Shown here: positions 19,201 to 52,551 of the stretch, piece after piece
Layout: the number at the start of each line of letters is the position of its first letter
How positions within the stretch are numbered: position 1 is the stretch's first letter
Source: an uncultured Candidatus Saccharibacteria bacterium
GTDB lineage: Bacteria > Patescibacteriota > UBA1384 > CAILIB01
DNA length: 64,000 nt
NCBI GenBank assembly: GCA_964593885.1
Contig: CAZQKK010000001.1
Coordinates: 24,066 to 88,065, forward strand
Direction of reading: 5' to 3'
The notes under the pieces: generated by a model
Database searches by the model: none
Told to the model about the DNA's origin: nothing
The model's input: the letters and a program-made list of their open reading frames with translations, nothing else
Translations under genes and position numbers: made by a program

Positions 19201-22200
19201 GGTAAATACTGGCACCTGGGTGGCTGAACCGTATGTTCCTACTGAACCCACGTTAGGAAGGCTTAGAGAAACGCTGCCGCCAAGCGCAACCGCACCACCA
19301 CCTGAGAGACCTGTGCCAGCAGTAACAGTGAGTGAAGAGTTGGCAAGTGCTGCATTTGCAACAGAACCATTTGGTAGCGATACCGCACCGGCAGTTACCG
19401 TAAAGCCACTGGCTACGGTGAGTGAACCAGTGAAGTTAGCAGAGGAACTAATGGTTTGGCCGTTGTAGGTTCCAGCGGTTAGGTTGCCTGCATTAATGGT
19501 CCCAGCAACAATGTTGCCGTCTTTATTTACACTTAGCTTGCTCACCCCATTCACCTGGAGATCCACTAAGTTTCCGGTGTAACCTCCGACAGCATTGAGA
19601 CCGATGAAGGTACCGGCTGCATCGCCCCCAACAATGGCATTCCCGAGGCGAAGGAGGCTACTGGTAGCCGAGGCGGCTGGAGCTCCAGTGAGCGATAGTG
19701 CTGTACCACCGGTGTTTGAACCGGTAATAAGGCCGGTAAACGTAGGGTTGTTCACAATGTTGAGGGTGGTACTCCCACCCAGTGAGACAGATCCACCGCC
19801 CGACAGGTTGGTACCAGCGGTAACGGTGAGTGAAGAGTTTGCTAGGTTGGCATTTGAGATGCCGGCAGTTCCAGAGAGATTTGCGTTAGTGAGACCTGTA
19901 ATGGTGTTTGTACCAGCATCGATGGTAGCGCCTGAAATGGTACCAGCATCCACGATACCAGCTCCACTGTTATCGATACCGTTCACCCCAAGCAATCCTC
20001 CAATAGAAACGTCATTAGTAACTGAAAGACCGGTACCGGCAGATGAGGCGGTAACCACCCCAGTAAAGGTTGGGTTGTTTACCACATTTAGGGTGGTTGA
20101 GGAACCAAGAGCTACAGATCCGCCACCAGTGAGGTTGGTACCAGCCGTTACCGTGAGAGATGCATTGGCAAGCTCAGCGTTATCAATAGAGCCATTTGGG
20201 AGCGAAACGGTACCAGAGGTAACCGTAAGTCCATTTGCAACGGTGAGCGAACCGGTAAGGTTAGCAGCTGCCGAGATGGTTTGACCATTGATAGTTCCAC
20301 TGGTGATGGTGCCACTACCCAAGCCAAGTGAGGTACCAATAATGGCGCCAGTATCTGAAACGCTGAAGGTGGTGGCACTATCGGTGGTGTTCCTCACCGC
20401 CATGGCGATTCCAGAAGTACCTCGGGTAACGGTGAAGGTTCCGTTGGTGGTGGTAGCCGTACCAATGGCCAGGGCGCCAGCCGCAAAGTTGAGGCCTGAA
20501 GCTGAAGCGATAGTGGTATTGCTGTCCCAGTAGGTAAGGGTGCCGGAACTTCCTGATCCAGTTACCCCACCACCTGCTGAACATGATCCCCAGGTAGGAA
20601 CACCGCCAGAGATAACGAGACACTGGTTGTTTGAACCGTTGGCGATAGCAGACCAAGCACCAGCCGAAATGTAAGGCACGCCAGTTGAGGCGCTTGAATC
20701 AAAGCCAGTGCCACCCCTATTTGGAGCAAGCTGACCAGTGGTGATTGCTGAAGCTGCGAGGGCAATACTGGTTGCCGAAACACCGGTTACCCTTCCCTGG
20801 GCATCAGTGGTGAAGACAGGCACCTGACTTGCTGATCCGTAGGTTGCAGCACTCCCCACATTTGGTAGTGAGAGGGTGGTAGAACTCCCAAGAGAAACCG
20901 CTCCGCCTCCGGAGAGGCCAGTGCCAGCAGTGACGGTGAGCGATGAGTTTGCAAGCTCGGTATTGCCAATTTCCCCGGCTGGGAGCGAAACGGTGCCGGC
21001 AGTTACCGTGAGGCCACCGCTGGTAATGGTGGTAGAACCCGAGGTGACGGCAAACACATCGGTACCATTGTTCTGGACGGCAAACTTGCCGGTAGAACCA
21101 GTGGCAATATTGACGATAAAGTTACTGTCTGTGGTGGTGTTTGCCAGGGTAACGGCAAAGTCTTTTGCATCAGTTGTGGTGATGGTGTTGCCATTCCCGT
21201 AGGCAGCCTGCAAGGTGTTTGAAGCCTGTGCACAGCTTCCCCAAGTTGGGATTCCTGCAGAGACAATGAGACAGTCCCCGTTTGAACCAATTGCGCGTTT
21301 TCCGAGGGTGTTGGCACCTGTGGCATAGATAATATCGCCAGTAGCGTAGCTGGAAAGGCCAGTTCCACCGTAGGTTTCGCCAATGGTTCTTCCGTGCCAG
21401 TCAAAACCAGAAATGGCATTGGTAACATCGCCAACGATATCGGCTCCATCCACAATGTTTACCTGGCTGACGTCTAGGGTGAGTGTTTGGAGGCCGCTAT
21501 TACCGAGGCTGATTGCCCCATTTGCAAGGATACCCACACTTCCACCTGGTGTTGACATTTGAATGGTGCCACCAGTAGCGGTTGCATCAAGGACAATACC
21601 TGGGAGCGAACCAACTGCAGTAAGTGAAGTAACACCAGCACTGGAGGTTGAAATATCAAGCCTATTTGAGGCGTTGTAACGGTTGCTAATCTGGTTTCCT
21701 GCGTTTGAGGTGACAGAGAGCGGCTGGGTAAAGGCATTGGATTGGGCGAGGTACGCAACGTTGCTGAGGGTACCATTTGCATTTACATCAAGCCCACCAA
21801 GCTGGAGAGCTGTGGTGGCATTAATGGTTGGAGCGGTAACCGAGGTAGCGAAACTTGGGTTCCCAATCACGCTAATTGAGGTACTTCCCCCCAGGGCTAC
21901 AGAACCACCACCGGTGAGGTTGGTTCCGGCAGACACCGTGAGTGAGGAATTTGCAAGCTCAGCATTGCCAATTTCGCCGGCAGGGAGCGAAACGGTTCCA
22001 GCACTTACCGTGAGGCCGTTGGCAACGGTGAGTGAGTTGCCACTAATGTCCCCTGTGCTGTTGATTGAGAGTACCGTTGCGTTATCAGCGGTATTCCTGA
22101 CTGCAAGGACGATGCCACTTGAAGCCTTCCTAACCGTGAGAGGAGCGATGGTTGAAGCCGTCCCAATTCCAAGCTCTGATGCGCCAGCGTTCCAGTTGAG

Positions 22201-36789: not shown

Positions 36790-36864
36790 TGGCGCCCTCG
36801 ACAGGAATCGAACCCATATCTCCCCCTTAGGACGGGGTAGCTCTATCCATTGAGCTACGAGGGC
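36790..36864 (-). tRNA. tRNA-Arg (anticodon CCU)
   Basis: rc GCCCTCGTAGCTCAATGGATAGAGCTACCCCGTCCTAAGGGGGAGATATGGGTTCGATTCCTGTCGAGGGCGCCA. 7-bp acceptor GCCCTCG/CGAGGGC, D-arm GCTC/GAGC, anticodon loop GTCCTAA, T-loop TTCGATT, CCA encoded. Confidence 0.85.
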
Positions 36865-40606: not shown

Positions 40607-40653
40607 TCGAAATCCAAAAGCGAAAACTTGTTTTCACTTTTGTCTTTCTCCTC

Positions 40654-40729
40654 GGGGCGTAGCACAGTTGGCTAGTGCGCCTGGTTTGGGACCAGGAGGT
40701 CCGCAGTTCGAGTCTGCGCGCCCCGACCA
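40654..40729 (+). tRNA. tRNA-Pro (anticodon UGG)
   Basis: CGGGGCGTAGCACAGTTGGCTAGTGCGCCTGGTTTGGGACCAGGAGGTCCGCAGTTCGAGTCTGCGCGCCCCGACCA. Acceptor CGGGGCG/CGCCCCG, anticodon loop TTTGGGA, CCA encoded. Closely resembles bacterial proM. Confidence 0.9.
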
Positions 40730-40819
40730 AGAAAGAACCTGCAGTAATGCGGGTTTTTTCTTGTCAAAATATAGTATTGACGGGAAAGGTTCTATGGCTT
40801 ATACCGAACATATACCGAT

Positions 40820-41512
40820 ATGCCAAAACTACCCATCCCTCCCCAAACAATCGAAAAAATACGAAACCTGCGCAAGGAAGGTTACTCGTTGAGGGATATT
40901 GAGCGACTAGTTCCTCATAGCAGATCTACTCTCCACAAATACACCTCAGATATCCTCTTTGTGCAGAATGGTGATTCAAAGAATTCTGCAACTATTGAAC
41001 AATACAACAAGAGAACTAGGCTTCGTGAAGCAAAGCTATTTAAACAAGAAAAGGCTGCAGAAGATCTTTTGCCCGATATTACTAACCAGGAGCTCTTCTA
41101 CCTTGGTCTAGGAATTTATATTGGAGAGGGAACAAAAACACATCACCAAACCAGAATTACAAACTCTGACCCAACAGTGTTACTGATCTGTAAAACCTGG
41201 CTAATCAAGTGTCTTAACGTTCCAGAAGATAACATTCGCATTGCGCTTCATATTTATCCAGACGTATCTGAAAGGGCTTCAATAGACTATTGGTCAAATA
41301 CATTAAACATTTCTCAGTCACAATTCTATAAATGCACGACTGACTTGAGAAATAAGTCAAAAACTGGTAGAAACAACAGGGTACTACAGTACGGAACAGC
41401 TCAGATGTATGTAACCGCCAATGGGAATAAGAATTTTGGCTCAAGGTTACATGACGTTATAATGAGCTACATCGATAGATCAAAATACCTTGCGGGTATG
41501 GTTCAATGGTAG
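40820..41512 (+). CDS. AT-rich ORF (230 aa) with N-terminal HTH and a LAGLIDADG-like motif (LGLGIYIGEG). Putative homing-endonuclease-like mobile gene whose last 21 nt overlap tRNA-Gly
   Basis: N-terminal HTH IEKIRNLRKEGYSLRDIERLVPHSRSTLHKY. Motif ELFYLGLGIYIGEGTK resembles the single LAGLIDADG motif plus the downstream Lys. About 38-40% GC versus about 52% in flanks. The reading frame ends ...KYLAGMVQW-TAG inside tRNA-Gly (41492-41512). Confidence 0.4.
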   Translation: MPKLPIPPQTIEKIRNLRKEGYSLRDIERLVPHSRSTLHKYTSDILFVQNGDSKNSATIEQYNKRTRLREAKLFKQEKAAEDLLPDITNQELFYLGLGIYIGEGTKTHHQTRITNSDPTVLLICKTWLIKCLNVPEDNIRIALHIYPDVSERASIDYWSNTLNISQSQFYKCTTDLRNKSKTGRNNRVLQYGTAQMYVTANGNKNFGSRLHDVIMSYIDRSKYLAGMVQW

Positions 41513-41565
41513 AATTCCTCCCTTCCAAGGAGAAGATGCGGGTTCGATTCCCGCTACCCGCTCCA
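41492..41565 (+). tRNA. tRNA-Gly (anticodon UCC)
   Basis: GCGGGTATGGTTCAATGGTAGAATTCCTCCCTTCCAAGGAGAAGATGCGGGTTCGATTCCCGCTACCCGCTCCA. The 3' half is nearly identical to E. coli glyT. Anticodon loop CTTCCAA. Confidence 0.9.
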
Positions 41566-41582
41566 AGATTTCTCAAGTACAT

Positions 41583-41657
41583 GGAGGCCATGGTGTAGTG
41601 GTAACACAACAGATTGTGGATCTGTTATCACGGGTTCGATACCCGTTGGCCTCCCCA
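41583..41657 (+). tRNA. tRNA-His (anticodon GUG) with encoded G-1 and CCA
   Basis: G-1 pairs with C73. Acceptor GAGGCCA/TGGCCTC, D-stem GTGT/ACAC, anticodon stem ACAGA/TCTGT, loop TTGTGGA, T-loop TTCGATA. Confidence 0.85.
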
Positions 41658-41664
41658 ATAAAAG

Positions 41665-41699
41665 GACAAATTGCCTCGTGTAATTTGTCTTTTTATTTT
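41665..41699 (+). terminator. Intrinsic terminator after tRNA-His (GACAAATT-gcctcgtgt-AATTTGTC followed by a T-run)
   Basis: ggacaaattgcctcgtgtaatttgtctttttatttt. Confidence 0.7.
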
Positions 41700-41760
41700 G
41701 AGCGAAATAATGGGTATTGAACCCGTGAGCTGAGGGATGTATCCCGAAGCTGCATAGTGA

Positions 41761-41780
41761 GATACCCGTTGGCCTCCCCA
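41761..41780 (+). repeat. Exact 20-bp direct repeat of the tRNA-His 3' end (gatacccgttggcctcccca; original copy at 41638-41657). att-like scar
   Basis: Identical 20-mers 123 bp apart, with a terminator and tRNA-fragment-like sequence between them. Confidence 0.8.
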
Positions 41781-41837
41781 AGAATGAACATCACCTAGGT
41801 GGTGTTTTTTCTTTTGCCTGAAGCCTACAATAGAGAC

Positions 41838-42572
41838 ATGCACGCTACCTCAACCGTTTTCTGGCTCTCACTGCTCACCGCAGCCACAACAGCCCTAGGT
41901 GCGCTTCCCCTCATGTTCTGGAAGCAGAGCCGACACGGCTGGCAGAGCTACGGTAACTCGGTTGCAGCTGGGTGCATGCTTGGTGCTAGCGTCCTCCTAG
42001 TTGTCCACGGCCTCGATACTAACGTTCTTGGTGTACTTGCTGGAATTCTCATCGGAGCACTCGCAGTCTGGATCACCCAGGTAATAGTTGAGAAACATAA
42101 GGCTTTCCACCTCAAGGGAATGACGGCAATCACCGCTCGAAAAGCCTTTCTCATTGTGAGCATCATGACCATCCACTCGGCTATGGAAGGGTTGAGCATT
42201 GGTGTTTCCTTTGCCGAGAGCGGGAACTTTGGTCTCATCGTGGTTGCCGCCATGGCACTCCAGAACATACCCGAGGGACTGGCCATCTCGCTGGTTCTCG
42301 TACCTCGAGGAGCAACCATTCTGGCAGCAGCTTTCTGGAGCTTCTTCTCAAGCATCCCTCAGGTACTCTTTGCTGTTCCCGCATTCGCGTTTGTGGAGCG
42401 ATTCCACCCGTTCCTCGCACCAGGCTTAGGATTTGCAGCTGGAGCAATGGCGTGGATGTGCTTCAAAGACCTTATCCCTGAAGCAAGTCAGCACCTTGGT
42501 GGTGAGCGAGTCTGGCTCACCGTGACGCTCACCGGTATCGCAACCTTCCTTCTAGATGCCCTCCTGAACTAA
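41838..42572 (+). CDS. zupT: ZIP-family divalent metal (zinc) transporter, ZupT-like. The ORF track starts at GTG 41799; ATG 41838 is preferred
   Basis: 8 TM helices and the ZIP signature HSAMEGLSIGVSFAESGNFGLIVVAAMALQNIPEGLAISLVL. Confidence 0.8.
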   Translation: MHATSTVFWLSLLTAATTALGALPLMFWKQSRHGWQSYGNSVAAGCMLGASVLLVVHGLDTNVLGVLAGILIGALAVWITQVIVEKHKAFHLKGMTAITARKAFLIVSIMTIHSAMEGLSIGVSFAESGNFGLIVVAAMALQNIPEGLAISLVLVPRGATILAAAFWSFFSSIPQVLFAVPAFAFVERFHPFLAPGLGFAAGAMAWMCFKDLIPEASQHLGGERVWLTVTLTGIATFLLDALLN

Positions 42573-42727
42573 AACCTGGAAAAAAGGGTGGTAATCTGGT
42601 AGTGTACGGCAAGCGAGTTTTTCTGCGCCGTATCGATGCAGTAAAGCAGCGCCGTATCGCTTTCAGCGATACAAGGCACTCGCTCGCATGAAAAGAGAAA
42701 GCCAGCTTTCTCTTTCCCTTCTCGCTC

Positions 42728-42803
42728 GCGCCTGTAGCTCAGTGGATAGAGCATCTGTCTTCGGAACAGAGGGTCGGGGGTTCGATCCCCTCCAGGCGCG
42801 CCA
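42728..42803 (+). tRNA. tRNA-Arg (anticodon UCG)
   Basis: GCGCCTGTAGCTCAGTGGATAGAGCATCTGTCTTCGGAACAGAGGGTCGGGGGTTCGATCCCCTCCAGGCGCGCCA. Anticodon stem TCTGT/ACAGA, loop CTTCGGA (U33, TCG, G37). Confidence 0.75.
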
Positions 42804-42817
42804 AATCACCCAAACAT

Positions 42818-42894
42818 GTCCCGATAGCTCAGTTGGATAGAGCGAGAGCCTTCTAAGCTCTAGGTCGCTGGTTCGATCCCAGCTCGGGACGCCA
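42818..42894 (+). tRNA. tRNA-Arg (anticodon UCU)
   Basis: GTCCCGATAGCTCAGTTGGATAGAGCGAGAGCCTTCTAAGCTCTAGGTCGCTGGTTCGATCCCAGCTCGGGACGCCA. Resembles bacterial argU. Confidence 0.9.
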
Positions 42895-42996
42895 GTATTC
42901 AGGTTACACCTGGTTGCCTACTGATAATTTTTCTGGTACTATTTTTCCGTTACTTCGCAGGTCTCAGTCGCTTTCGGCGACAGTGACTCTCGCTTC

Positions 42997-43071
42997 GGGT
43001 CTATAGCTCAATGGTAGAGCAGTGCCCTCTTAAGGCATTGGTTCTGGGTTCGAGTCCCAGTGGGCCCACCA
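42997..43071 (+). tRNA. tRNA-Lys (anticodon CUU)
   Basis: GGGTCTATAGCTCAATGGTAGAGCAGTGCCCTCTTAAGGCATTGGTTCTGGGTTCGAGTCCCAGTGGGCCCACCA. Anticodon loop CTCTTAA. Confidence 0.85.
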
Positions 43072-43086
43072 AAATATTCAACAACC

Positions 43087-43164
43087 AGGCGCGGTCGTCT
43101 AGTTGGTCCAGGACATCAGATTCTCATTCTGAAGATCACGGGTTCGAATCCCGTCCGCGCTACC
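43087..43164 (+). tRNA. tRNA-Glu (anticodon CUC)
   Basis: GGCGCGGTCGTCTAGTTGGTCCAGGACATCAGATTCTCATTCTGAAGATCACGGGTTCGAATCCCGTCCGCGCTACCA. Glu-type D-arm (GTCTAG..CCAGGAC), anticodon loop TTCTCAT. The 5' boundary is +/-1 nt. Confidence 0.8.
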
Positions 43165-43172
43165 AAAAAGAG

Positions 43173-45633: not shown

Positions 45634-46386
45634 CTACTTCTCTGGGGTGACCGTACAATCCTTACACTTAGCGGGGTCGAGAGTGCCGATGGTAACCTTG
45701 TTTGTCTTAGCAAGCACAATACAGGCATCGATCATGATCTTGTAGGTTGAGTAGTCTCCCTTGTCTGGTGCCGGCTCCCAGTACGGTAGTGGCGGAAGTC
45801 CACCCTCCTGTGGCTTGTACTTCAGGTTGTAGACCACCGAGAAAGCGTCAGTAGAGTAGGTTCTAATCACCTTTTCTACGCACTTACCATCTACCATTTT
45901 CAGTGCAGTAACCGTTACCTTCATTTTTCCAACCACGTTTGCCACGATGTCAAAAGGCTCTTTGGTATTTTTGAAGAGGAGCACCTTGAGATCTGGCTCA
46001 ATCACCACTTTCTGACAGCCATCATTGGTAAACAGCTTAGCGTCTATCAGTATCTTGGTCAGGAGATCACCCATGTTGTACGTGTCGAAAGGCTTGCAGG
46101 TTTCCTGAGCAGCTGCAACGTTCACAGCAAATGGGTTACTCAAGCTAGCACCATCAGCTTGTGTGAGCGCAGCAGGATTAGGGTAACTAGAGAGCAAGAG
46201 CGCCTGAATTGCCTTGTCCTCAATGGTTCCCAACCTTACCGTCCCCGTAGTCTGCTGACCACCGATGTAGCTTGCACCAGCTAGGTTGTTTGTCGCGAGG
46301 TAGTAGCCAAACAGGGTGCCAAAGATGAAGGTTGCGATACTAAACATCGCGAGAGTTCTCACAACTGGCGTACGACGGAGTTCCAT
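45634..46386 (-). CDS. Hypothetical membrane-anchored/secreted protein (250 aa)
   Basis: N-terminal hydrophobic helix TLAMFSIATFIFGTLFGYYLA. No recognisable catalytic motifs. Four Cys in the C-terminal half. Confidence 0.5.
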   Translation of the reverse strand: MELRRTPVVRTLAMFSIATFIFGTLFGYYLATNNLAGASYIGGQQTTGTVRLGTIEDKAIQALLLSSYPNPAALTQADGASLSNPFAVNVAAAQETCKPFDTYNMGDLLTKILIDAKLFTNDGCQKVVIEPDLKVLLFKNTKEPFDIVANVVGKMKVTVTALKMVDGKCVEKVIRTYSTDAFSVVYNLKYKPQEGGLPPLPYWEPAPDKGDYSTYKIMIDACIVLAKTNKVTIGTLDPAKCKDCTVTPEK

Positions 46387-46879: not shown

Positions 46880-47476
46880 ATGAAAACAATCCTTCGCAGT
46901 GTCATGATGATCGCCGCTGTTGCCATGCTGGCAACTGGTACAACCCGCGCTCTATTCACGAGCACCGTTGCTCTCAGTGGAACTTTCTCAACCGGTACGC
47001 TCCACATGAGCCTTACCGATGGTACAACTACCAACCTCTCGTTTGCTAACCTCAAGCCAGGCGATACTGTACGCAAGTGGGTAATGCTCACCAATGATGG
47101 TACCCTCGATATCGCTGGCATGAACCTCCAAACTGCCAACGTTACTGGCGACGCTGGTCTCCTCGACCAGGTTCGCGTTTCAGTGATTGGTTGGAACAAC
47201 AACCCAGGTGGAAACGCTTACTTCACCCCGGGTTGGAACACCACAGCTGGTCAGGCTGTAAACTGGTACGGTACCGCTGATGATGTCTTCACCACCCCAG
47301 AGTGGCAGTCAGGCACCATTCCTACAGTACTCGCTCCAGGACAGAGCATTCAGTACGTCCTCGATTTCACCGTTCCAACAACCATGGACGATGCTTGGCA
47401 GGATAAGTCAGTTACCTTTGACATGAACTTCACCGCTCAACAGGGTGCAGGTACTGCTTACTCAATCTGGCCATAG
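46880..47476 (+). CDS. TasA/CalY/camelysin-family secreted protein with a SipW-cognate-type signal peptide (198 aa)
   Basis: MKTILRSVMMIAAVAMLATGTTRALFTSTVALSGTFSTGTLHMSL...NLSFANLKPGDTVRKWVMLTNDGTLDIAG parallels B. subtilis TasA AAFNDIKSKDATFASGTLDLS...NLSNLKPGDKLTKDFQFENNGSLAI. Confidence 0.7.
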   Translation: MKTILRSVMMIAAVAMLATGTTRALFTSTVALSGTFSTGTLHMSLTDGTTTNLSFANLKPGDTVRKWVMLTNDGTLDIAGMNLQTANVTGDAGLLDQVRVSVIGWNNNPGGNAYFTPGWNTTAGQAVNWYGTADDVFTTPEWQSGTIPTVLAPGQSIQYVLDFTVPTTMDDAWQDKSVTFDMNFTAQQGAGTAYSIWP

Positions 47477-47528
47477 TAATGGCTTACCGATCGCCTGAGG
47501 TTCCTCGGGCGATCACCTAAGCTATTCC

Positions 47529-48236
47529 ATGAAAAACTACCGACACCACCTCAGCACCGTAGGTTTTGTACTCATATTTCTGCTGGGTGGGTTTGTCCTC
47601 GTCTCAGTACTCCCTATCCCAGGAGCTTGGCGTATTCTCTCGGTACTCTCAGGTTCAATGGAGCCAACCCTCCACACGGGAAGCGTTGTCATCATTCAGC
47701 CTACAGACACCTATGAGATTGGTGATGTGATCACCTTCCAGCAAGCCTCAACAGACTCAAAGAATACCGGTTCAATTACCCACAGGATCATTAAGAAGCA
47801 GCGAGTTAACGGCACTGACATCTTCCAGACCAAAGGAGATGCCAACAATGCTGCAGACGTACTTCCCATTAGCCAGGGAAACATTCTGGGCAAGGTAAAG
47901 GGTACTGTTCCAATCCTGGGGTACATCCTTGAGTTCCTCCGTAACCCGGTAGGACTCATCATCTTTGTGATCATTCCTTCAACCCTCATCATCAGTGAAG
48001 AAGCTAAGAAGATCTGGAAAGAGGTAACTCGCATCCGCACTGAGCGCAAGGCGAAAAAAGCCGCTCTTGAAAAGCCAGAGGCTGAAACCCCAGAGGAGGA
48101 AGCTGTACCAGTAGTGGTTGACCCGCCAGCGAAGAAGAAGACGACAGTAAAAACTGTAGCTCCCAAGAAGAAAGCTCCTAAGGCTAAAGTCCCCAAGACT
48201 AAACCAACCAAGCCAAGTAAGCAAACGTCGTCATGA
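47529..48236 (+). CDS. sipW: Signal peptidase I of the SipW/archaeal-eukaryal type, with a Lys/Pro-rich C-terminal tail
   Basis: N-terminal TM, catalytic-Ser box VLSGSMEPTLHTGSVVII, THRII, and TKGDANNAADVLPI matching SipW TKGDNN..D. C-terminal tail KKKTTVKTVAPKKKAPKAKVPKTKPTKPSK. Confidence 0.8.
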   Translation: MKNYRHHLSTVGFVLIFLLGGFVLVSVLPIPGAWRILSVLSGSMEPTLHTGSVVIIQPTDTYEIGDVITFQQASTDSKNTGSITHRIIKKQRVNGTDIFQTKGDANNAADVLPISQGNILGKVKGTVPILGYILEFLRNPVGLIIFVIIPSTLIISEEAKKIWKEVTRIRTERKAKKAALEKPEAETPEEEAVPVVVDPPAKKKTTVKTVAPKKKAPKAKVPKTKPTKPSKQTSS

Positions 48237-49231
48237 CCATACGCATCTCTCGCCTGGTTAGTCTACCGGCACTTCTCGGCATCGTTGCCCTCGCTGCTTT
48301 CGGTCCAGTCCAGAGCATTCGCGCCGCATCTTTTGAAACTGGTGGCTTGAAGATTACCTACGACGGCCCCGCAGCACTCACCTTTGGAAACATTAAACCA
48401 GGCGATAGTAACCGTAAGCAGTTTACGGTTCAGAACGTCTCTAGTGTTGATCAAAACATTGCCATCGGTGCCACCACGTTTGCCGACCTCCTGAGCACCT
48501 CACTCTTGGTTACCCCTGATATCAATGGCACCCCAATTTGGACGAGGACACTCGCTTCGCTCTCAGGAACTGCGACCACCGGAATTGAGATCACACCAAT
48601 CCTCTCACCAGGCTTTAGCGTAACCCTCGGGGTAACGATCTCGCTCCCCTCTACTGCAGCTAACGAATTTCAGGGCCTCGTATCTGATGGGTTCTCAATT
48701 GTAATAGGTAGCCAGATCGGGCTCCCAGAAACTACCCCTACACCCTCTCCTGGTGATGGCGGAAACGGTGGAGATGGGACGGGTGGTGGTGACAACAGAC
48801 CAGCAGCAGCCCCTGGCGGACAGTTTGACGGCCAGCCACTCGCACTCCTCGCTCCAGGTAACATCGCCACAAATAACGCAGCCCAGCCGAACACCCTTAC
48901 CGATGGTGCTGGAAATCAGTCACCTAGCCCTTCAGTAAACAACGTTCTTGGTGCCGCAACTTCTCAAAACCTCCCTGACTGTTTCTGGTGGTGGTTGTTA
49001 CCAGTAATCTTTGCTGCCCTCTTGGTGGCGTACCGAGTAGTAGGTAATAAGCGAAAGATTGCCTTTGAGTCAGTTTGGCCTGCAGTGGTAGCTATTGGCA
49101 CCATCGCACTCCACCTCTACCTCCACACCTGGTACCGAGAGGTAGCCGGATGTGACTACACCACCTACATCGTCATCGCGGAGCTCGCCATCTACTACGT
49201 ATTCCTCTTCAAACAGGGTAAAAACGAGTAG
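48233..49231 (+). CDS. Second TasA/camelysin-like secreted protein (332 aa) with a Gly/Pro-rich linker and C-terminal hydrophobic membrane-anchor segments (TapA-like role)
   Basis: Signal peptide VSLPALLGIVALAAFGPVQSIRAASFETGGLKITYDGPAALTFGNIKPGDSNRKQFTVQNVS (TasA-type core). Linker PSPGDGGNGGDGTGGGD. C-terminal WWWLLPVIFAALLVAYRVV...AVVAIGTIALHLYL...YIVIAELAIYYVFLF. 4-nt overlap with sipW. Confidence 0.6.
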   Translation: MTIRISRLVSLPALLGIVALAAFGPVQSIRAASFETGGLKITYDGPAALTFGNIKPGDSNRKQFTVQNVSSVDQNIAIGATTFADLLSTSLLVTPDINGTPIWTRTLASLSGTATTGIEITPILSPGFSVTLGVTISLPSTAANEFQGLVSDGFSIVIGSQIGLPETTPTPSPGDGGNGGDGTGGGDNRPAAAPGGQFDGQPLALLAPGNIATNNAAQPNTLTDGAGNQSPSPSVNNVLGAATSQNLPDCFWWWLLPVIFAALLVAYRVVGNKRKIAFESVWPAVVAIGTIALHLYLHTWYREVAGCDYTTYIVIAELAIYYVFLFKQGKNE

Positions 49232-49243
49232 GTAGCTGTAGTT

Positions 49244-49570
49244 CTACCTGAGCGTCACGTGTTCCGGCAGTGTTGGTGTCTCTTCCCAAACCTCTTTGAG
49301 AATGCGGCACGGATCAATAATCCGAGGATCAACAATTTGGTAGAACACGTTGAGTCCTTCTTTCCGAGTCCTCACCAGCTTCGTATGCCTGAGCATTGCG
49401 AGATGCTGCGAGACATTAGCTTTCTTCAATCCCAGCATTTCAACGAGCTGCTCAACCGAGGCTTCCTGAAACTTTATCGTGTTCAAAATTTCCAAACGAA
49501 TAGGATTTGAGAGTACCTTGTAGATTTCAGCGTTGCGGTTGTAAACAGTTTTTGGAAATGGAGATTTCAC
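49244..49570 (-). CDS. ArsR/SmtB-family transcriptional regulator
   Basis: YKVLSNPIRLEILNTIKFQEASVEQLVEMLGLKKANVSQHLAMLRHTKLVRTRKEG is a winged-HTH ArsR signature. Confidence 0.8.
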   Translation of the reverse strand: MKSPFPKTVYNRNAEIYKVLSNPIRLEILNTIKFQEASVEQLVEMLGLKKANVSQHLAMLRHTKLVRTRKEGLNVFYQIVDPRIIDPCRILKEVWEETPTLPEHVTLR

Positions 49571-49700
49571 GGTTTCGCAATTAATGATTCGCGCTAAGTA
49601 TAGCTTTTGCGCGCTGGATTGACTACCAATACCACTTTTTCTGTCCCTCGGCCGTCACGGGGTATCATTGGCACTTCACAATGTGCGAAAGTACGAAGGC

Positions 49701-49726
49701 ATTAGTTTCGTTATTTCGAAACTAAT
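49701..49726. promoter_or_regulatory. Perfect 10-bp inverted repeat ATTAGTTTCG-ttattt-CGAAACTAAT overlapping a -10-like TAATAC (49724-49729) about 35 nt upstream of nrdD. Candidate repressor operator
   Basis: Arms are exact reverse complements. Located in the divergent arsR/nrdD intergenic region. SD GGAGG lies 8 nt before the nrdD ATG. Confidence 0.5.
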
Positions 49727-49759
49727 ACATCAGTAAGCCCTAACCCTCCCGGAGGCGAC

Positions 49760-51868
49760 ATGTTCAAACAGGTACGGAAACGCGACGGTAAACTCACAAC
49801 GTTTGACACGTCAAAGATTGCTATCGCTATTGGGAAGGCGGGGGTAGCAACGGGTGAATTTGGCTACAAAGAAGCTGAACGACTGACAAAGCTGGTGCTC
49901 AAAGAACTCCCTAAGCTAAAGAAGCTTCAAACTCCAGGCGTAGAAGATGTCCAGAATAGTGTTGAGAAAGTCCTTCTCAACTCGCCCTACCAACAAACTG
50001 CAAAGGCCTACATTCTCTACCGCGAGCAGCACGCGCAGCTACGCAATCTCGCCCACGCAAGTCAGGTTGAACTGATGGATCAGTACCTCCAAAACTTGGA
50101 CTGGCAGGTTTCGGAAAACTCGAATATGTCGTACTCACTCCAAGGATTGAATAACTACGTCTCATCCGAGGTTTCCAAAACCTACTGGCTGCGAAAGGTC
50201 TATCCACCTGAGGTATTTGAGCCAGCTGAGCGCGGAGACTTCCACATCCACGACCTCAACACCCTCTCCACCTACTGCGTAGGCTGGGATCTCCAAGATC
50301 TCCTTGTATCCGGCTTCAAGGGCACCCGAGACAAGATTGAGTCAAAGCCCGCCAAGCACTTCAAGACCATCCTCGGCCAGATTGTAAACTTCTTCTACAC
50401 CCTCCAGGGCGAATCGGCAGGAGCCCAGGCATTCTCCAACTTCGACACCCTCCTCGCCCCGTTCATTCGCTACGACACGCTCACCCAGGCAGAGGTTGAG
50501 CAGTCCCTCCAAGAGTTCATCTTCAACATGAACGTCCCTACCAGGGTAGGCTTCCAGTCCCCTTTCACAAACATTACCCTTGATCTCATTGCCCCAAGCA
50601 CCCTCGCTAACCAGCAGGTCACCATTGGGGGCGAAAGTAAGCCAGAAACCTACGGTGATTTCCAGAAAGAAATGGACATGTTCAATGCCGCCTTCACCAA
50701 GGTTATCGCTGAGGGTGATGCCAAGGGTAGGGTCTTCACCTTCCCCATCCCTACCTACAACATCTCCAAGGACTTTGACTGGGACAACCCAAAGCTTGAG
50801 GGACTATGGAAGATGACCGCCAAGTACGGCATCCCCTACTTCTCTAACTTTGTGAACTCGGACATGGACCCTGAGGATGCCCGGAGCATGTGCTGCAGGC
50901 TGCGCCTCGATAACCGAGAGCTCAGGAAGCGCGGTGGCGGTCTCTTTGGCGCCAACCCGCTCACCGGATCAGTTGGGGTGGTCACCATCAACCTCCCCCG
51001 CATTGGCTACCTGGCGAAGAACCAGAAAGAGTTCCTCTCTCACCTCGCCCACCTCATGGACATCGCCAAGGAGAGCCTCGAGATTAAGCGCAAGCTCATC
51101 GAGAAGCTTACCGACGCCGGACTCTACCCCTACAGCAAGTTCTACCTGCGGGACATCAAGGCGCGCAACGGTACGTACTGGACCAACCACTTCTCAACCA
51201 TCGGCCTCGTTGGCCTCAATGAAGCCTGTCTCAACCTCTTTAGTGAGAACGTCGCCACCGAGAAGGGCCAGCGCTTCGCCGTAAAGGTGCTGGAGTTCAT
51301 GAGGAAGCGAATCCAAGGCTACCAGGAGGAAACCGGCAACTACTACAACCTCGAGGCCACCCCGGCTGAAGCCACCGCCTACCGTTTCGCCAGCAAGGAT
51401 AAGGGCCTCTACCCAGACATCGTGGTTGCCAACGAAGCTGCCTACCAGAAAACCGGCGAGCAACCCTTCTACACCAACTCGTCGCACCTGCCAGTAGACT
51501 TCACTAACGACATCTTCGAGCTCCTCGACCTCCAGGATGAGCTGCAGACTAAGTACACGGGAGGCACCGTGGTACACCTGTTTGTGGGCGAAGAGATCAC
51601 CGACACACGTGCTGTGAAGTCCCTCGTCAAAACCATCTGCACCAAGTACCGCCTCCCCTACTTCACCCTCACCCCAACATTTTCGGTCTGCCCTGAGCAC
51701 GGCTACGTCGCCGGCAAGGTGCCAACCTGTGAGACGTGTGGCGCCGAGAACAACGTCTACTCGCGAATTGTCGGCTACCTAAGGCCGGTGAAGCAGTGGA
51801 ACCCTGGGAAGAAAGCTGAGTTTGGGAAACGCACCACGTACGTCATGCCCGAGAAAGCAACGGTATGA
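49760..51868 (+). CDS. nrdD: Anaerobic ribonucleoside-triphosphate reductase (class III RNR) with an N-terminal ATP-cone
   Basis: ATP-cone MFKQVRKRDGKLTTFDTSKIAIAIGKAG. C-terminal Zn-ribbon and glycyl-radical region CPEHGYVAGKVPTCETCGAENNVYSRIVGYLRPVKQWNPGKKAEFGKR. 702 aa. Confidence 0.9.
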   Translation: MFKQVRKRDGKLTTFDTSKIAIAIGKAGVATGEFGYKEAERLTKLVLKELPKLKKLQTPGVEDVQNSVEKVLLNSPYQQTAKAYILYREQHAQLRNLAHASQVELMDQYLQNLDWQVSENSNMSYSLQGLNNYVSSEVSKTYWLRKVYPPEVFEPAERGDFHIHDLNTLSTYCVGWDLQDLLVSGFKGTRDKIESKPAKHFKTILGQIVNFFYTLQGESAGAQAFSNFDTLLAPFIRYDTLTQAEVEQSLQEFIFNMNVPTRVGFQSPFTNITLDLIAPSTLANQQVTIGGESKPETYGDFQKEMDMFNAAFTKVIAEGDAKGRVFTFPIPTYNISKDFDWDNPKLEGLWKMTAKYGIPYFSNFVNSDMDPEDARSMCCRLRLDNRELRKRGGGLFGANPLTGSVGVVTINLPRIGYLAKNQKEFLSHLAHLMDIAKESLEIKRKLIEKLTDAGLYPYSKFYLRDIKARNGTYWTNHFSTIGLVGLNEACLNLFSENVATEKGQRFAVKVLEFMRKRIQGYQEETGNYYNLEATPAEATAYRFASKDKGLYPDIVVANEAAYQKTGEQPFYTNSSHLPVDFTNDIFELLDLQDELQTKYTGGTVVHLFVGEEITDTRAVKSLVKTICTKYRLPYFTLTPTFSVCPEHGYVAGKVPTCETCGAENNVYSRIVGYLRPVKQWNPGKKAEFGKRTTYVMPEKATV

Positions 51869-52551
51869 AGATTGGCGGCCTGCAGCGAACTACCCTCGTA
51901 GACTATCCGGGTAAGGTTGCTGCCACCGTCTTCACCCAGGGGTGCAACTTTAGGTGTCCGTACTGCCACAACCCCGAACTGGTCCTACCCGAGAGGTTTG
52001 AAGCACCGCTCCCCACCGAAGACTTCTTCTCGTTCTTAGCATCGCGCCAGGGCAAGCTAGATGCGGTGTGCATAACCGGGGGCGAACCCACCGTCCAGCC
52101 AGACCTCGCAAGCTTCATTGCAAGGATTAAAGAGCTGGGCTTCCTGGTGAAGCTTGATAGCAACGGCTCTCGCCCAGACCTTCTGGCAAAGATTTTGGCT
52201 GGGGGAAACGTTGACTACGTGGCGATGGACGTAAAGGCGCCACTTGAGAAGTACTCTGAAGTTGCAGGAATATCACCCTTCCTGGTGAAACAGATCGAGA
52301 AGAGCATCACCGTCATCATGGAGAGCGGCGTAGACTACGAGTTCAGAACCACGGTGATGCACCCGCTGCTCGACGTAAACGATATTGAGATTATTGGCGG
52401 CTCAATCCGTGGCGCAAAACGCTACTTCCTCCAGAACTACCAGAAGTCCAAACAAGTCTCTAGTGATACCTTTACGCCTTTCACTCCTGGTGAGCTAGCG
52501 ATCAGTAAGTGCATTATGGAAACCTACGTCAAAGAGGTTGGAATACGCTAG
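51865..52551 (+). CDS. nrdG: Anaerobic RNR activating protein (radical SAM)
   Basis: TLVDYPGKVAATVFTQGCNFRCPYCHNPELV (CxxxCxxC). ATGA overlap with nrdD. Confidence 0.85.
   Translation: MKIGGLQRTTLVDYPGKVAATVFTQGCNFRCPYCHNPELVLPERFEAPLPTEDFFSFLASRQGKLDAVCITGGEPTVQPDLASFIARIKELGFLVKLDSNGSRPDLLAKILAGGNVDYVAMDVKAPLEKYSEVAGISPFLVKQIEKSITVIMESGVDYEFRTTVMHPLLDVNDIEIIGGSIRGAKRYFLQNYQKSKQVSSDTFTPFTPGELAISKCIMETYVKEVGIR

What the first reader, a model, noticed from the sequence alone, without database searches (positions are those of the whole stretch)
46880..49231. Bacillus-like tapA-sipW-tasA architecture: two TasA/camelysin-family proteins flanking a SipW-type signal peptidase
Gene 1 has the SipW-cognate signal peptide and TasA core (SGTFSTGTLHMSL...NLKPGDTV...NDGTLDI). 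Gene 2 has the SipW catalytic boxes (SGSMEPTL, TKGDANNAAD) plus a lysine-rich tail. Gene 3 is a longer TasA-like protein with a Gly/Pro linker and C-terminal membrane anchors, a TapA-like anchoring/nucleating role. In Bacillus this trio builds biofilm amyloid-like fibres. Finding it in this compact, giant-protein-bearing genome suggests a dedicated extracellular fibre or sheath system, possibly connected to the surface giants.
Basis: partly seen in the sequence, partly recalled or inferred. Interest (0 to 1): 0.65.

Follow-up and report, generated by a model that had tools for sequence, protein, structure and literature searches.

The report
TasA-type fibre operon with membrane anchor
A three-gene operon in a probable Candidate Phyla Radiation bacterium encodes a TasA-like fibre subunit, its dedicated SipW-type signal peptidase and a TasA-like protein tied to the membrane by three helices; it is a compact variant of a known fibre system, not a Bacillus tapA-sipW-tasA copy.

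Summary
All three ORFs exist exactly as described. g1 (46880-47476) is a TasA/camelysin-family protein: Pfam PF12389 at 50.5 bits, and the best PDB fold matches are TasA. g2 (47529-48236) is an archaeal/ER-type (SipW-type) signal peptidase I with Ser43, His85 and Asp104/110 intact. g3 (48233-49231) has a TasA-like N-domain, shown only by profile-profile comparison (99.3 %, E 3e-20), then an ~85-residue Gly/Pro-rich linker and three C-terminal helices.

g3 is not TapA-like. It lacks the N-terminal donor strand that TasA and TapA use. Its nearest architectural parallel is the haloarchaeal Tafi anchor TafF, which has a pilin-like domain plus three C-terminal TM helices.

g3 belongs to an unnamed family: 94 cluster representatives, one of them labelled Patescibacteria. 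In all nine contexts examined the g3-type gene lies next to, or one gene from, a SipW-type gene (untested in the close JGI contig).

Best model: SipW cleaves g1, g1 polymerises by donor-strand exchange, and g3 is an acceptor-only membrane anchor.

TasA homologues in Patescibacteria were already reported, and nothing links the operon to the giant ORF. I rate it a new variant of a known kind, of moderate interest.

The parts
46880..47476 (+). g1: TasA/camelysin-family major fibre subunit, 198 aa. Signal peptide is res 1-24 (46880-46951) with predicted cleavage T22-R-A24|L-F26. Putative donor strand is res 25-35 (46952-46984). Jelly-roll core is res 36-198.
   Evidence: PF12389 50.5 bits against a cutoff of 22.5. 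AF2 pLDDT 79.6, with res 22-37 disordered. Foldseek PDB top three hits are TasA, E 2.6e-6. F26 is invariant and T22/A24 nearly invariant across 40 homologues. The spacing from the cleavage site to the TF(S/A)xGTL motif equals that of mature TasA. dN/dS is 0.04-0.05.
47472..47531 (+). Intercistronic RNA stem-loop between g1 and g2. The inner 11-bp hairpin is 47489-47499 / 47504-47514. The outer helix pairs the g1 stop region with the g2 AUG. It is a possible stoichiometry control giving g1 in excess over g2 and g3.
   Evidence: MFE -30.5 kcal/mol, z -5.4, 0 of 200 shuffles fold as well. The inner helix is 100 % paired in the window, L003 and L006, with one AU->GC compensatory change and variable loops. 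Only three sequences were available, so the covariation support is weak.
47529..48236 (+). g2: SipW-type (archaeal/ER-type) signal peptidase I, 235 aa. TM1 is about res 9-30. Catalytic residues are Ser43 (47655-47657), His85 (47781-47783), Asp104 and Asp110. TM2 is about res 139-157. A Lys/Pro-rich cytoplasmic tail covers res ~160-235 (48006-48233).
   Evidence: TIGR02228 114.9 bits (cutoff 51.85). The Bacillus SipW equivalog NF046067 scores 114 bits, below its cutoff of 190. g2 aligns to human SEC11A across the SGSMEP, HR and GDxNxxxD motifs. Those boxes are invariant in seven SipW-type sequences from g3-type loci.
48233..49231 (+). g3: membrane-anchored TasA-like protein, 332 aa. Sec-type signal peptide is res 1-31 with an AxA site (S-I-R-A31|A32). 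The TasA-like beta domain without a donor strand is res 32-162 (48326-48718). The disordered Gly/Pro/Thr/Asn-rich linker is res 163-246 (48719-48970). The three-helix membrane domain is res 247-332 (48971-49228), with conserved C250-F-W-W-W, W282-P283, H294xxxH298 and C307.
   Evidence: hhalign of the g3 family against the TasA-like family gives 99.3 %, E 3e-20 over 164 columns, and 96.6 % with the shallow alignments. A TasA-like HMM scores g3 at 48.6 bits. PF12389 reaches only 21.3 bits against a cutoff of 22.5. AF2 predicts helices at 247-274, 282-303 and 309-331. The family comprises 94 representatives, and 59 of 96 sequences scanned (93 of those hits plus P0004, P0005 and P0006) carry both domains. 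The AxA site lies 6 residues before the conserved Gly in about 19 of 22 members.

Best explanation
The locus is a minimal three-gene operon for a cell-anchored TasA-type fibre.

Inferred from homology: g1 is exported by Sec. The dedicated SipW-type peptidase g2 cleaves it after T22-R-A24, which leaves Phe at P2' as in TasA.

Inferred from TasA: the freed N-terminal segment (res 25-35, LFTSTVALSGT) acts as a donor beta-strand. It inserts into the jelly-roll of the next g1 subunit and gives a donor-strand-exchange polymer.

Shown at the sequence level: g3 is a TasA-fold paralogue whose signal peptide ends directly at the core, so the mature protein has no donor strand.

Inferred, by analogy with the AlphaFold-based model of haloarchaeal TafF: g3 can only accept a strand from g1. 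It therefore forms the cell-proximal end of the fibre. It is held in the membrane by a conserved three-helix C-terminal domain and spaced from it by an ~85-residue disordered linker long enough to cross the wall.

Inferred: a stable stem-loop after g1 and the ATGA-coupled g2-g3 pair would give much subunit and little peptidase and anchor.

Speculative: the likely use is adhesion or biofilm/host attachment in a CPR (Berkelbacteria-like) cell.
For: -
- In the g1 family F26 is invariant and T22/A24 nearly invariant. The spacing is the same as in TasA, whose donor strand is res 28-38 with F29 and F39 at the interface (PMC9674648). F26 and F36 of g1 correspond to F29 and F39.
- The g1 N-terminal segment 22-37 is disordered in the monomer model.
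- In the g3 family the hydrophobic core of the signal ends a median of 11 residues before the conserved Gly, against 19 in the TasA-like family. An AxA site sits 6 residues upstream in about 19 of 22 members, against 16 residues upstream in the TasA-like family.
- The gene cluster is conserved. The trio recurs in L003 and L006 and, with the third gene cut at the contig end and neither downstream product family-tested, in the same order on a JGI contig.
- Distant g3-family members (21-29 % identity) also sit beside or one gene from a SipW-type gene, usually with a PF12389 gene upstream: L012, L013, L015, L016, L017.
- All three genes are under purifying selection, and g1 is the most constrained (98 % and 92 % aa identity against 88 % and 68-69 % for g2 and g3).
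- TafF precedent: a pilin-like domain plus three C-terminal TM helices, with the TafA donor strand docking into TafF in AlphaFold models (PMC11821415, PMC12337348).
Against: - No experiment exists for any CPR TasA homologue.
- Cleavage sites are predicted by simple rules and not by a trained predictor.
- TIGR04088 is just below its cutoff on g1 and absent on g3, so which peptidase cleaves g3 is unknown.
- No g1-g3 complex could be modelled.
- L012 shows SipW plus a g3-like gene with no adjacent TasA-like gene on the stretch available.
- The conserved Cys, His and Trp residues on the outer face of the TM domain suggest it does more than anchor.
Confidence: 0.55

Rival explanations
1. g1 forms free, secreted matrix fibres as in Bacillus. 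g3 is not a fibre subunit but an accessory or regulatory membrane partner of the peptidase, comparable in role to the DUF5305/TafG-type SPase accessory proteins. Its three-helix domain would bind SipW, and its ectodomain would hold or present the substrate.
For: g3 is translationally coupled to sipW (ATGA overlap). It lies next to or one gene from a SipW-type gene in every context examined, including L012 where no TasA-like gene is adjacent. The TM domain carries conserved Cys, Trp, His and Pro positions, which is more than a plain anchor needs. SPase-accessory membrane proteins are described in TasA-superfamily loci (10.64898/2026.01.04.697558; PMC11821415).
Against: The ectodomain is a full-length TasA-fold paralogue that has specifically lost the donor strand. 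That pattern is what a terminal acceptor subunit would show. There is no similarity to DUF5305 or to any Pfam family. A long, variable, disordered linker fits a spacer better than an enzyme subunit.
Confidence: 0.2
2. One reading: g3 is a TapA-like nucleator that starts the fibre by giving its own N-terminal strand to the first g1 subunit, while also anchoring it.
For: If g3 were cleaved after A21 (V-A-L-A|A-F) instead of after A31, it would keep a 12-residue segment, AFGPVQSIRAAS, that aligns with the TasA-like donor strand and has Phe at P2'. TapA is reported to co-localise with the membrane and to nucleate TasA (PMC10151520).
Against: Across the g3 family the conserved small-x-small site is the later one, 6 residues before the conserved Gly. 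The residues before it look like a signal c-region with Gly/Pro and no beta pattern. The hydrophobic core runs up to F23. No test here links g3 to TapA, which is described as having a complete V-set Ig fold (PMC10151520). The gene order differs from tapA-sipW-tasA.
Confidence: 0.12
3. g1 and/or g3 act as camelysin-type cell-surface metalloproteases, or as stand-alone adhesins or surface-coat proteins, and do not polymerise.
For: The Pfam family is named Peptidase_M73 after Bacillus cereus camelysin. g3 alone, anchored and on a long stalk, could be a monomeric adhesin.
Against: g1 has a single His and no HExxH motif (sequence). The residues best conserved in the family are the cleavage-site and donor-strand positions and the KPGD loop. 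TasA itself is a fibre subunit and not a demonstrated protease (PMC9674648).
Confidence: 0.08

Closest known systems
Bacillus subtilis tapA-sipW-tasA operon (TasA fibres)
   Same: It has a PF12389 major subunit with a T-x-A|x-F cleavage site, an 11-residue N-terminal segment before the TF(A/S)xGTL motif, and a dedicated ER/archaeal-type signal peptidase in the same operon. One accessory gene overlaps sipW; in B. subtilis that gene is tapA (PMC10151520).
   Different: The gene order differs. No TapA homologue was detected. The accessory protein here is a TasA paralogue with a C-terminal membrane domain and no donor strand. g2 scores below the Bacillus SipW equivalog cutoff (114 against 190 bits) and g1 far below the TasA equivalog cutoff (31.7 against 450). 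g1 is shorter than TasA (174 against 234 mature residues). No sinR/sinI-type regulators are adjacent.
Haloarchaeal Tat-fimbriae (Tafi): TafA/TafE pilins, TafD signal peptidase, TafF anchor (PMC11821415, PMC12337348)
   Same: It is a donor-strand pilus locus with a dedicated S26 peptidase. Its proposed anchor, TafF, has a Sec signal, a pilin-like N-terminal domain that accepts the pilin donor strand in AlphaFold models, and three C-terminal TM helices. That is the same domain logic as g3.
   Different: It is archaeal and its pilins use the Tat pathway. The locus also encodes a tip protein (TafC), an adapter (TafE), a regulator (TafB) and DUF5305 (TafG). TafD has four TM segments and an extra domain. 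Sequence homology between g3 and TafF could not be tested because no TafF sequence was available in the tools. The anchor role of TafF is itself only modelled.
Bacillus cereus sipW-tasA ... calY locus
   Same: It has two TasA-family paralogues with one SipW and no TapA (PMC4292775 by title and abstract; details from my own knowledge).
   Different: CalY is a secreted or surface-associated subunit without a three-helix membrane domain. Both paralogues keep the donor-strand region.
AbpX/AbpA-type TasA-superfamily loci with anchors (10.64898/2026.01.04.697558; PMC9245690)
   Same: The general theme is the same: jelly-roll donor-strand subunit, adjacent SPase I, and minor or anchor subunits.
   Different: The bacterial anchors described there are SLH or LPXTG cell-wall anchors, and the SPase has ten TM helices. 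Here the anchor is an integral three-helix domain and the SPase has two TM helices.

Membership tests
TasA/camelysin family (Pfam PF12389 Peptidase_M73): g1 | Score above the Pfam gathering threshold over most of the model | tested here: met
   50.5 bits against 22.5; residues 12-191 match model positions 13-194 of 196.
TasA/camelysin family: g1 | TasA-type jelly-roll fold | tested here: met
   AF2 model pLDDT 79.6. Foldseek PDB ranks 1-3 are TasA 8aur, 5of1 and 5of2, E 2.6e-6 to 7e-5, TM about 0.45-0.49.
TasA/camelysin family: g1 | SipW-dependent signal peptide (TIGR04088) with Phe at P2' | tested here: inconclusive
   TIGR04088 scores 18.7 bits against a cutoff of 19; the B. subtilis TasA control scores 42.1. 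The T-x-A|x-F motif is present; F26 is invariant and T22/A24 nearly invariant in 40 homologues.
B. subtilis TasA orthologue (NF046066 equivalog): g1 | Score above the equivalog cutoff | tested here: not met
   31.7 bits against 450. g1 is a family member and not an orthologue.
TasA/camelysin family: g3 N-terminal domain | Profile match to PF12389 or to TasA-like homologues over the whole domain | tested here: met
   Pfam alone is just below threshold (21.3 against 22.5, N-terminal 45 residues only). hhalign of the g3 family against the TasA-like family gives 99.3 %, E 3e-20, 164 columns. An HMM of 40 TasA-like sequences scores g3 at 48.6 bits.
TasA/camelysin family: g3 N-terminal domain | TasA-type fold in a structural comparison | tested here: inconclusive
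TasA-type polymerising subunit: g3 | N-terminal donor strand of about 11 residues between the cleavage site and the core | tested here: not met
   The AxA site lies 6 residues before the conserved Gly in about 19 of 22 family members, against 16 in the TasA-like family.
SipW-type / archaeal-ER-type signal peptidase I (TIGR02228): g2 | Score above the curated cutoff | tested here: met
   114.9 bits against 51.85. The same holds for six other SipW-type sequences from g3-type loci.
SipW-type signal peptidase I: g2 | Ser/His(/Asp) catalytic boxes and not the Ser/Lys pair of LepB | tested here: met
   S43 in SGSMEP, H85 in THR, and D104/D110 in GDANNAAD align with the corresponding motifs of SEC11A. 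They are invariant in seven sequences. The SEC11A Ser56-His96-Asp122 triad is from my own knowledge.
Bacillus SipW orthologue (NF046067 equivalog): g2 | Score above the equivalog cutoff | tested here: not met
   114.1 bits against 190.
TapA (YqxM): g3 | Complete V-set Ig / beta-sandwich central domain plus an N-terminal donor segment similar to that of TasA | tested here: not met
   The g3 ectodomain is homologous to TasA-like proteins. It lacks the donor segment. No TapA-like hit appears in Pfam, NCBIfam or PDB sequence searches. The definition of TapA comes from PMC10151520.
TafF-type Tafi anchor: g3 | Sec signal, pilin-like N-domain and three C-terminal TM helices, encoded beside a pilin and an S26 peptidase | tested here: met
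   The architecture matches. The TafF description is from PMC11821415 and PMC12337348.
TafF-type Tafi anchor: g3 | Sequence or structural homology to TafF (HAH_0238) | not testable with these tools
   No TafF sequence could be obtained.

The most novel reading that the evidence does not exclude
The g3 family is a previously undescribed class of donor-strand-less TasA-fold membrane anchors found mainly in metagenome contigs (its only named member is Patescibacteria). It would be the bacterial counterpart, and possibly a homologue, of archaeal TafF. Its conserved three-helix domain would work together with SipW so that signal cleavage and fibre initiation happen at the same membrane site. That would make this the smallest known self-contained cell-anchored donor-strand pilus machine: three genes, with no chaperone, usher or sortase. 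In episymbiotic CPR bacteria it could be a second attachment organelle beside type IV pili.
Probability: 0.3. Interest if true: 0.65.

Novelty: new variant of a known kind. Interest (0 to 1): 0.45.

Why it matters
CPR/Patescibacteria are mostly uncultured, and the cultivated ones live attached to other microbes. So far only type IV pili have been tied experimentally to that attachment (PMC9894109, PMC11623550).

A conserved three-gene TasA-type module with a built-in membrane anchor would be a second candidate attachment or biofilm organelle that is easy to test. Its small size makes it attractive for reconstitution. It also bears on how TasA-superfamily fibres are tethered to cells, which is still unclear even in Bacillus.

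The donor-strand-less, three-helix-anchored paralogue matches the TafF anchor modelled in haloarchaea. This suggests an old, shared solution to anchoring in both domains. The family-level finding, TasA plus SipW in Patescibacteria, is not new (PMC9245690).

Tried and rejected
- The genome-contig scan with the g3 alignment returned one true relative, a Berkelbacteria MAG, and two archaeal loci. The one inspected (L011) is a chance match of 'LTFGNIKPGD' inside an acetyl-CoA synthase/CODH subunit. L010, with the same match region and 26 % identity, was set aside by analogy. Both were rejected.
- The afdb50 fold library was not available.
- Pfam and NCBIfam gave nothing for the g3 C-terminal domain, even across 22 family members.
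- Cluster look-ups gave an organism name for only one g3-family member, a 'Patescibacteria group bacterium'.
- The consensus promoter and terminator scan found no convincing sigma-70 promoter upstream of g1 and no plus-strand terminator after g3.
- Literature searches for TasA in CPR found only the distribution remark in PMC9245690.
- Considered and dropped: a metalloprotease role (no HExxH), a spore-coat role (by my own knowledge CPR do not sporulate), and a link to the giant BNR-repeat ORF (no co-occurrence).
Full report
OBSERVATION

The window holds three co-directional ORFs at exactly the stated coordinates: g1 46880-47476 (198 aa), g2 47529-48236 (235 aa) and g3 48233-49231 (332 aa). g1 and g2 are separated by 52 nt, and g2 and g3 overlap by ATGA.

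These are real genes:
- Against a close relative (L003) and a more distant one (L006), dN/dS is 0.04-0.11 wherever it could be computed; dS was saturated for g2 against L006.
- HMMs built from the TasA-like, SipW and g3 families hit only these three ORFs in the whole window.

ORGANISM AND CONSERVATION

The same trio, in the same order, occurs in three other places:
- a 550-kb ENA contig, with g3 85-88 % identical (L003);
- a MAG titled 'uncultured Candidatus Berkelbacteria bacterium', with g1 92 % and g3 64-68 % identical (L006/L009);
- apparently a JGI contig, which has a PF12389 gene, a weak Peptidase_S26 gene and a third gene in the same order. That third gene is cut at the contig end and was not tested.

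The surroundings differ in each case. I therefore infer a Berkelbacteria-like CPR/Patescibacteria genome. Only the relative is named.

GENE 1

- Pfam PF12389 (Peptidase_M73, the TasA/camelysin family) scores 50.5 bits against a cutoff of 22.5, over almost the full model.
- A 40-sequence alignment gave an AF2 model with pLDDT 79.6. Residues 22-37 are the only low-confidence stretch.
- The three best PDB matches are the TasA fibre and the TasA monomers (E 2.6e-6 to 7e-5). Archaeal AbpA is rank 14.
- F26 is invariant and T22/A24 nearly invariant across the 40 homologues. This gives T-x-A|x-F, the same -3/-1/P2' pattern as TasA (GGTWA|AF).
- P2' Phe is the feature reported to make TasA a poor LepB substrate and a SipW substrate (PMC10269814 abstract).
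- The distance from the cleavage site to the TF(S/A)xGTL motif is identical to that in mature TasA.
- In TasA, residues 28-38 are the donor strand, with F29, I32 and F39 in the interface (PMC9674648). g1 F26 and F36 correspond to F29 and F39.
- TIGR04088 (the SipW-cognate signal) scores 18.7 bits against a cutoff of 19. This is borderline; the TasA control scores 42.1.
- g1 is far below the B. subtilis TasA equivalog cutoff, so it is a family member and not an orthologue.
- It has one His and no HExxH motif, so a metalloprotease role is unlikely.
- The NCBI gene call (190 aa) probably starts 8 codons too late, because the MKTILRSV n-region is conserved in relatives.

GENE 2

- TIGR02228 (archaeal-type signal peptidase I) scores 114.9 bits against a cutoff of 51.85. 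The Bacillus SipW equivalog scores 114 bits, below its cutoff of 190.
- g2 aligns to human SEC11A/C through SGSMEP, HR and GDxNxxxD.
- In seven SipW-type sequences from g3-type loci, G42-S43-M-E-P, T84-H85-R-I, G103-D104-A-N and D110 are invariant.
- Two hydrophobic segments flank the catalytic domain.
- The Lys/Pro-rich tail (res ~160-235) follows the second segment, so by the positive-inside rule it should be cytoplasmic. Its length varies from 0 to ~90 residues among relatives.

GENE 3

Pfam alone is just sub-threshold (21.3 against 22.5 bits, N-terminal 45 residues).

Profile-profile comparison settles homology:
- 96.6 % / E 5e-10 with shallow alignments;
- 99.3 % / E 3e-20 over 164 columns with 22 g3-family and 40 TasA-like sequences;
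- a TasA-like HMM that contains no g3 sequence scores g3 at 48.6 bits.

The AF2 model is mediocre (mean pLDDT 59). It shows a beta domain at 32-162 (block-mean pLDDT about 57-88), a disordered stretch at 163-246, and three helices at 247-274, 282-303 and 309-331.

An exhaustive HMMER search found 94 cluster representatives (29 at E <= 1e-10). Most are 300-350 aa and match end to end. Of 96 sequences scanned (93 of those hits plus P0004, P0005 and P0006), 59 carry both the N-domain and the C-terminal membrane domain.

Conserved positions in the family are:
- N-x-K/A-P-G, N68 and N144 in the ectodomain;
- an invariant Gly about 10 residues before the membrane;
- C-F/Y-W-W-W at the start of helix 1;
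- W-P at helix 2;
- often HxxxH at the end of helix 2;
- a Cys in the loop before helix 3.

No Pfam or NCBIfam model covers the C-domain. The only named family member is a 'hypothetical protein [Patescibacteria group bacterium]'.

GENOMIC ASSOCIATION

In five distant family members (21-29 % identity to g3) the g3-type gene lies directly after, or one gene after, a TIGR02228 peptidase:
- L012: SipW, then g3 overlapping it.
- L013: PF12389, TIGR04088 protein, SipW, a 120-aa ORF, g3.
- L015: PF12389, SipW, g3.
- L016: SipW (cut at the contig start), Lamin-tail-domain protein, g3.
- L017: PF12389, SipW, Lamin-tail-domain protein, g3.

The module [TasA-like]n, SipW, (small secreted protein), g3-type anchor is therefore conserved well beyond the window's close relatives.

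THE DONOR-STRAND TEST

In the TasA-like family the hydrophobic core of the signal peptide ends a median of 19 residues before the conserved Gly of the xGxL motif. A small-x-small site lies 16 residues upstream in nearly all 40 sequences.

In the g3 family the core ends a median of 11 residues before that Gly. The conserved A-x-A site lies only 6 residues upstream in about 19 of 22 sequences.

In g3 this site is S-I-R-A31|A32-S-F-E-T-G, preceded by a Gly-Pro c-region. Both hhalign alignments place this c-region where the TasA-like donor strand lies.

Mature g3-family proteins would therefore start at the core and lack the ~11-residue strand that TasA uses to polymerise and that TapA uses to nucleate (PMC9674648, PMC10151520). 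This rests on rule-based cleavage prediction. It is an inference and not a measurement.

MECHANISM PROPOSED

- Inferred from homology: g1 is exported, and g2 cleaves it at A24|L25.
- Inferred from TasA: the g1 N-terminal strand inserts into the next g1.
- Sequence pattern shown, role inferred: g3, having a TasA-fold domain without a donor strand, can only accept a strand. It therefore sits at the cell-proximal end.
- Helices predicted by AF2 at pLDDT about 65-78, with only the first strongly hydrophobic by Kyte-Doolittle: g3 is anchored by three helices.
- Inferred from disorder and from variable length and composition: the linker acts as a wall-spanning spacer.
- Expression logic: a strong stem-loop follows g1 (dG -30.5 kcal/mol, z -5.4). 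Its inner helix is fully paired in three relatives, with one compensatory change. Its outer helix pairs the g1 stop region with the g2 AUG. Together with ATGA coupling of g2 and g3, this fits an excess of subunit over peptidase and anchor. With only three sequences this remains a lead.

COMPARISON WITH KNOWN SYSTEMS

The locus works like the TasA system but is not a tapA-sipW-tasA operon. The order differs, no TapA homologue was detected, and the accessory protein would act with the opposite polarity.

The closest architectural parallel is the haloarchaeal Tafi locus. It has a pilin (TafA), an S26 peptidase (TafD, shown genetically to be required for pilin processing) and TafF. TafF is a Sec-dependent protein with a pilin-like N-domain and three C-terminal TM helices. 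In AlphaFold models it accepts the TafA donor strand and is proposed to anchor the fimbria (PMC11821415, PMC12337348). I could not test homology between g3 and TafF.

Other TasA-superfamily loci combine an SPase I with SLH or LPXTG anchors (10.64898/2026.01.04.697558). PF12389 proteins in Patescibacteria were already noted (PMC9245690), and databases already label some as 'CalY/TasA family protein'.

The longer PF12389 proteins found with g1 (316-356 aa) have soluble C-terminal extensions and not the three-helix domain.

WHAT IS NOT SUPPORTED

No link to the 5318-aa ORF (7294-23250, minus strand, BNR/Asp-box repeats) was found. It is 23.6 kb away, and the cassette's neighbours differ among relatives.

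The ArsR-like gene (49244-49570, minus strand) converges on g3. Together with NrdD and NrdG it is absent at this position in the syntenic L003, so it is probably not part of the system.

VERDICT

The locus is a compact variant of the known SipW/TasA fibre system. Its interesting part is an uncharacterised, donor-strand-less, three-helix-anchored TasA paralogue family that is genetically coupled to SipW.

Scores:
- Interest: 0.45.
- Confidence in a SipW-dependent TasA-family fibre locus: high, about 0.85.
- Confidence in the specific acceptor-only anchor model: about 0.55.

Noticed in passing
window 47472-47531: A conserved intercistronic stem-loop lies between g1 and g2. The inner 11-bp hairpin is 47489-47499/47504-47514. 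The outer helix pairs the g1 stop region with the g2 start codon. dG is -30.5 kcal/mol and z is -5.4. There is one compensatory AU->GC change in L006, and the loops differ between relatives.
   Followed up: partly
window 46880-47476 vs L003 8648-9244: g1 has much lower synonymous divergence from L003 (dS 0.27) than g2 and g3 in the same operon (0.84-0.91). Possible causes are strong codon constraint from high expression or recent recombination of g1.
   Followed up: no
window 46880-46903: The public gene call for g1 is 190 aa and starts at the second Met pair. The upstream MKTILRSV n-region is conserved in relatives, so the 198-aa start is more likely.
   Followed up: partly
window 48006-48233 (g2 res ~160-235): The Lys/Pro/Ala-rich, histone-H1-like tail of the signal peptidase is predicted to be cytoplasmic. 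Its length varies from 0 to ~90 residues among the SipW-type genes of g3-type loci. Its function is unknown.
   Followed up: partly
window 7294-23250 (-): A giant ORF of 5318 aa. Its only Pfam signal is many BNR/Asp-box repeats. No linkage to the TasA cassette was seen.
   Followed up: partly
window 49244-52551: An ArsR/SmtB-family regulator (minus strand), anaerobic ribonucleotide reductase NrdD and its radical-SAM activase lie between g3 and a class-I aldolase. In the syntenic relative L003 the aldolase follows g3 directly, so this block is an insertion or deletion difference.
   Followed up: partly
window 40653-43165 and 36790-36864: Seven tRNA genes in a loose cluster (Pro, Gly, His, Arg x2, Lys, Glu), plus one tRNA-Arg further upstream.
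   Followed up: no
L016 596-1030; L017 1498-2121; L013 5602-5964: In distant g3-type loci a small extra gene sits between sipW and the g3-type gene. It is a Lamin-tail-domain protein in L016 and L017 and a 120-aa ORF without family in L013. These may be minor or tip subunits, and they are absent from the window.
   Followed up: partly
window 45634-46386 (-): A 250-aa ORF with an N-terminal TM segment and a Cys-containing ectodomain has no family match. It lies between the methyltransferase and DUF1905 genes, and L003 has no gene at that position.
   Followed up: no
g3 res 250-307 (window 48980-49153): The conserved Cys250, Trp252/253, His294, His298 and Cys307 would all lie at the outer face of the membrane domain. 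This hints at a disulfide, a metal site or a partner-binding site and not a passive anchor.
   Followed up: no
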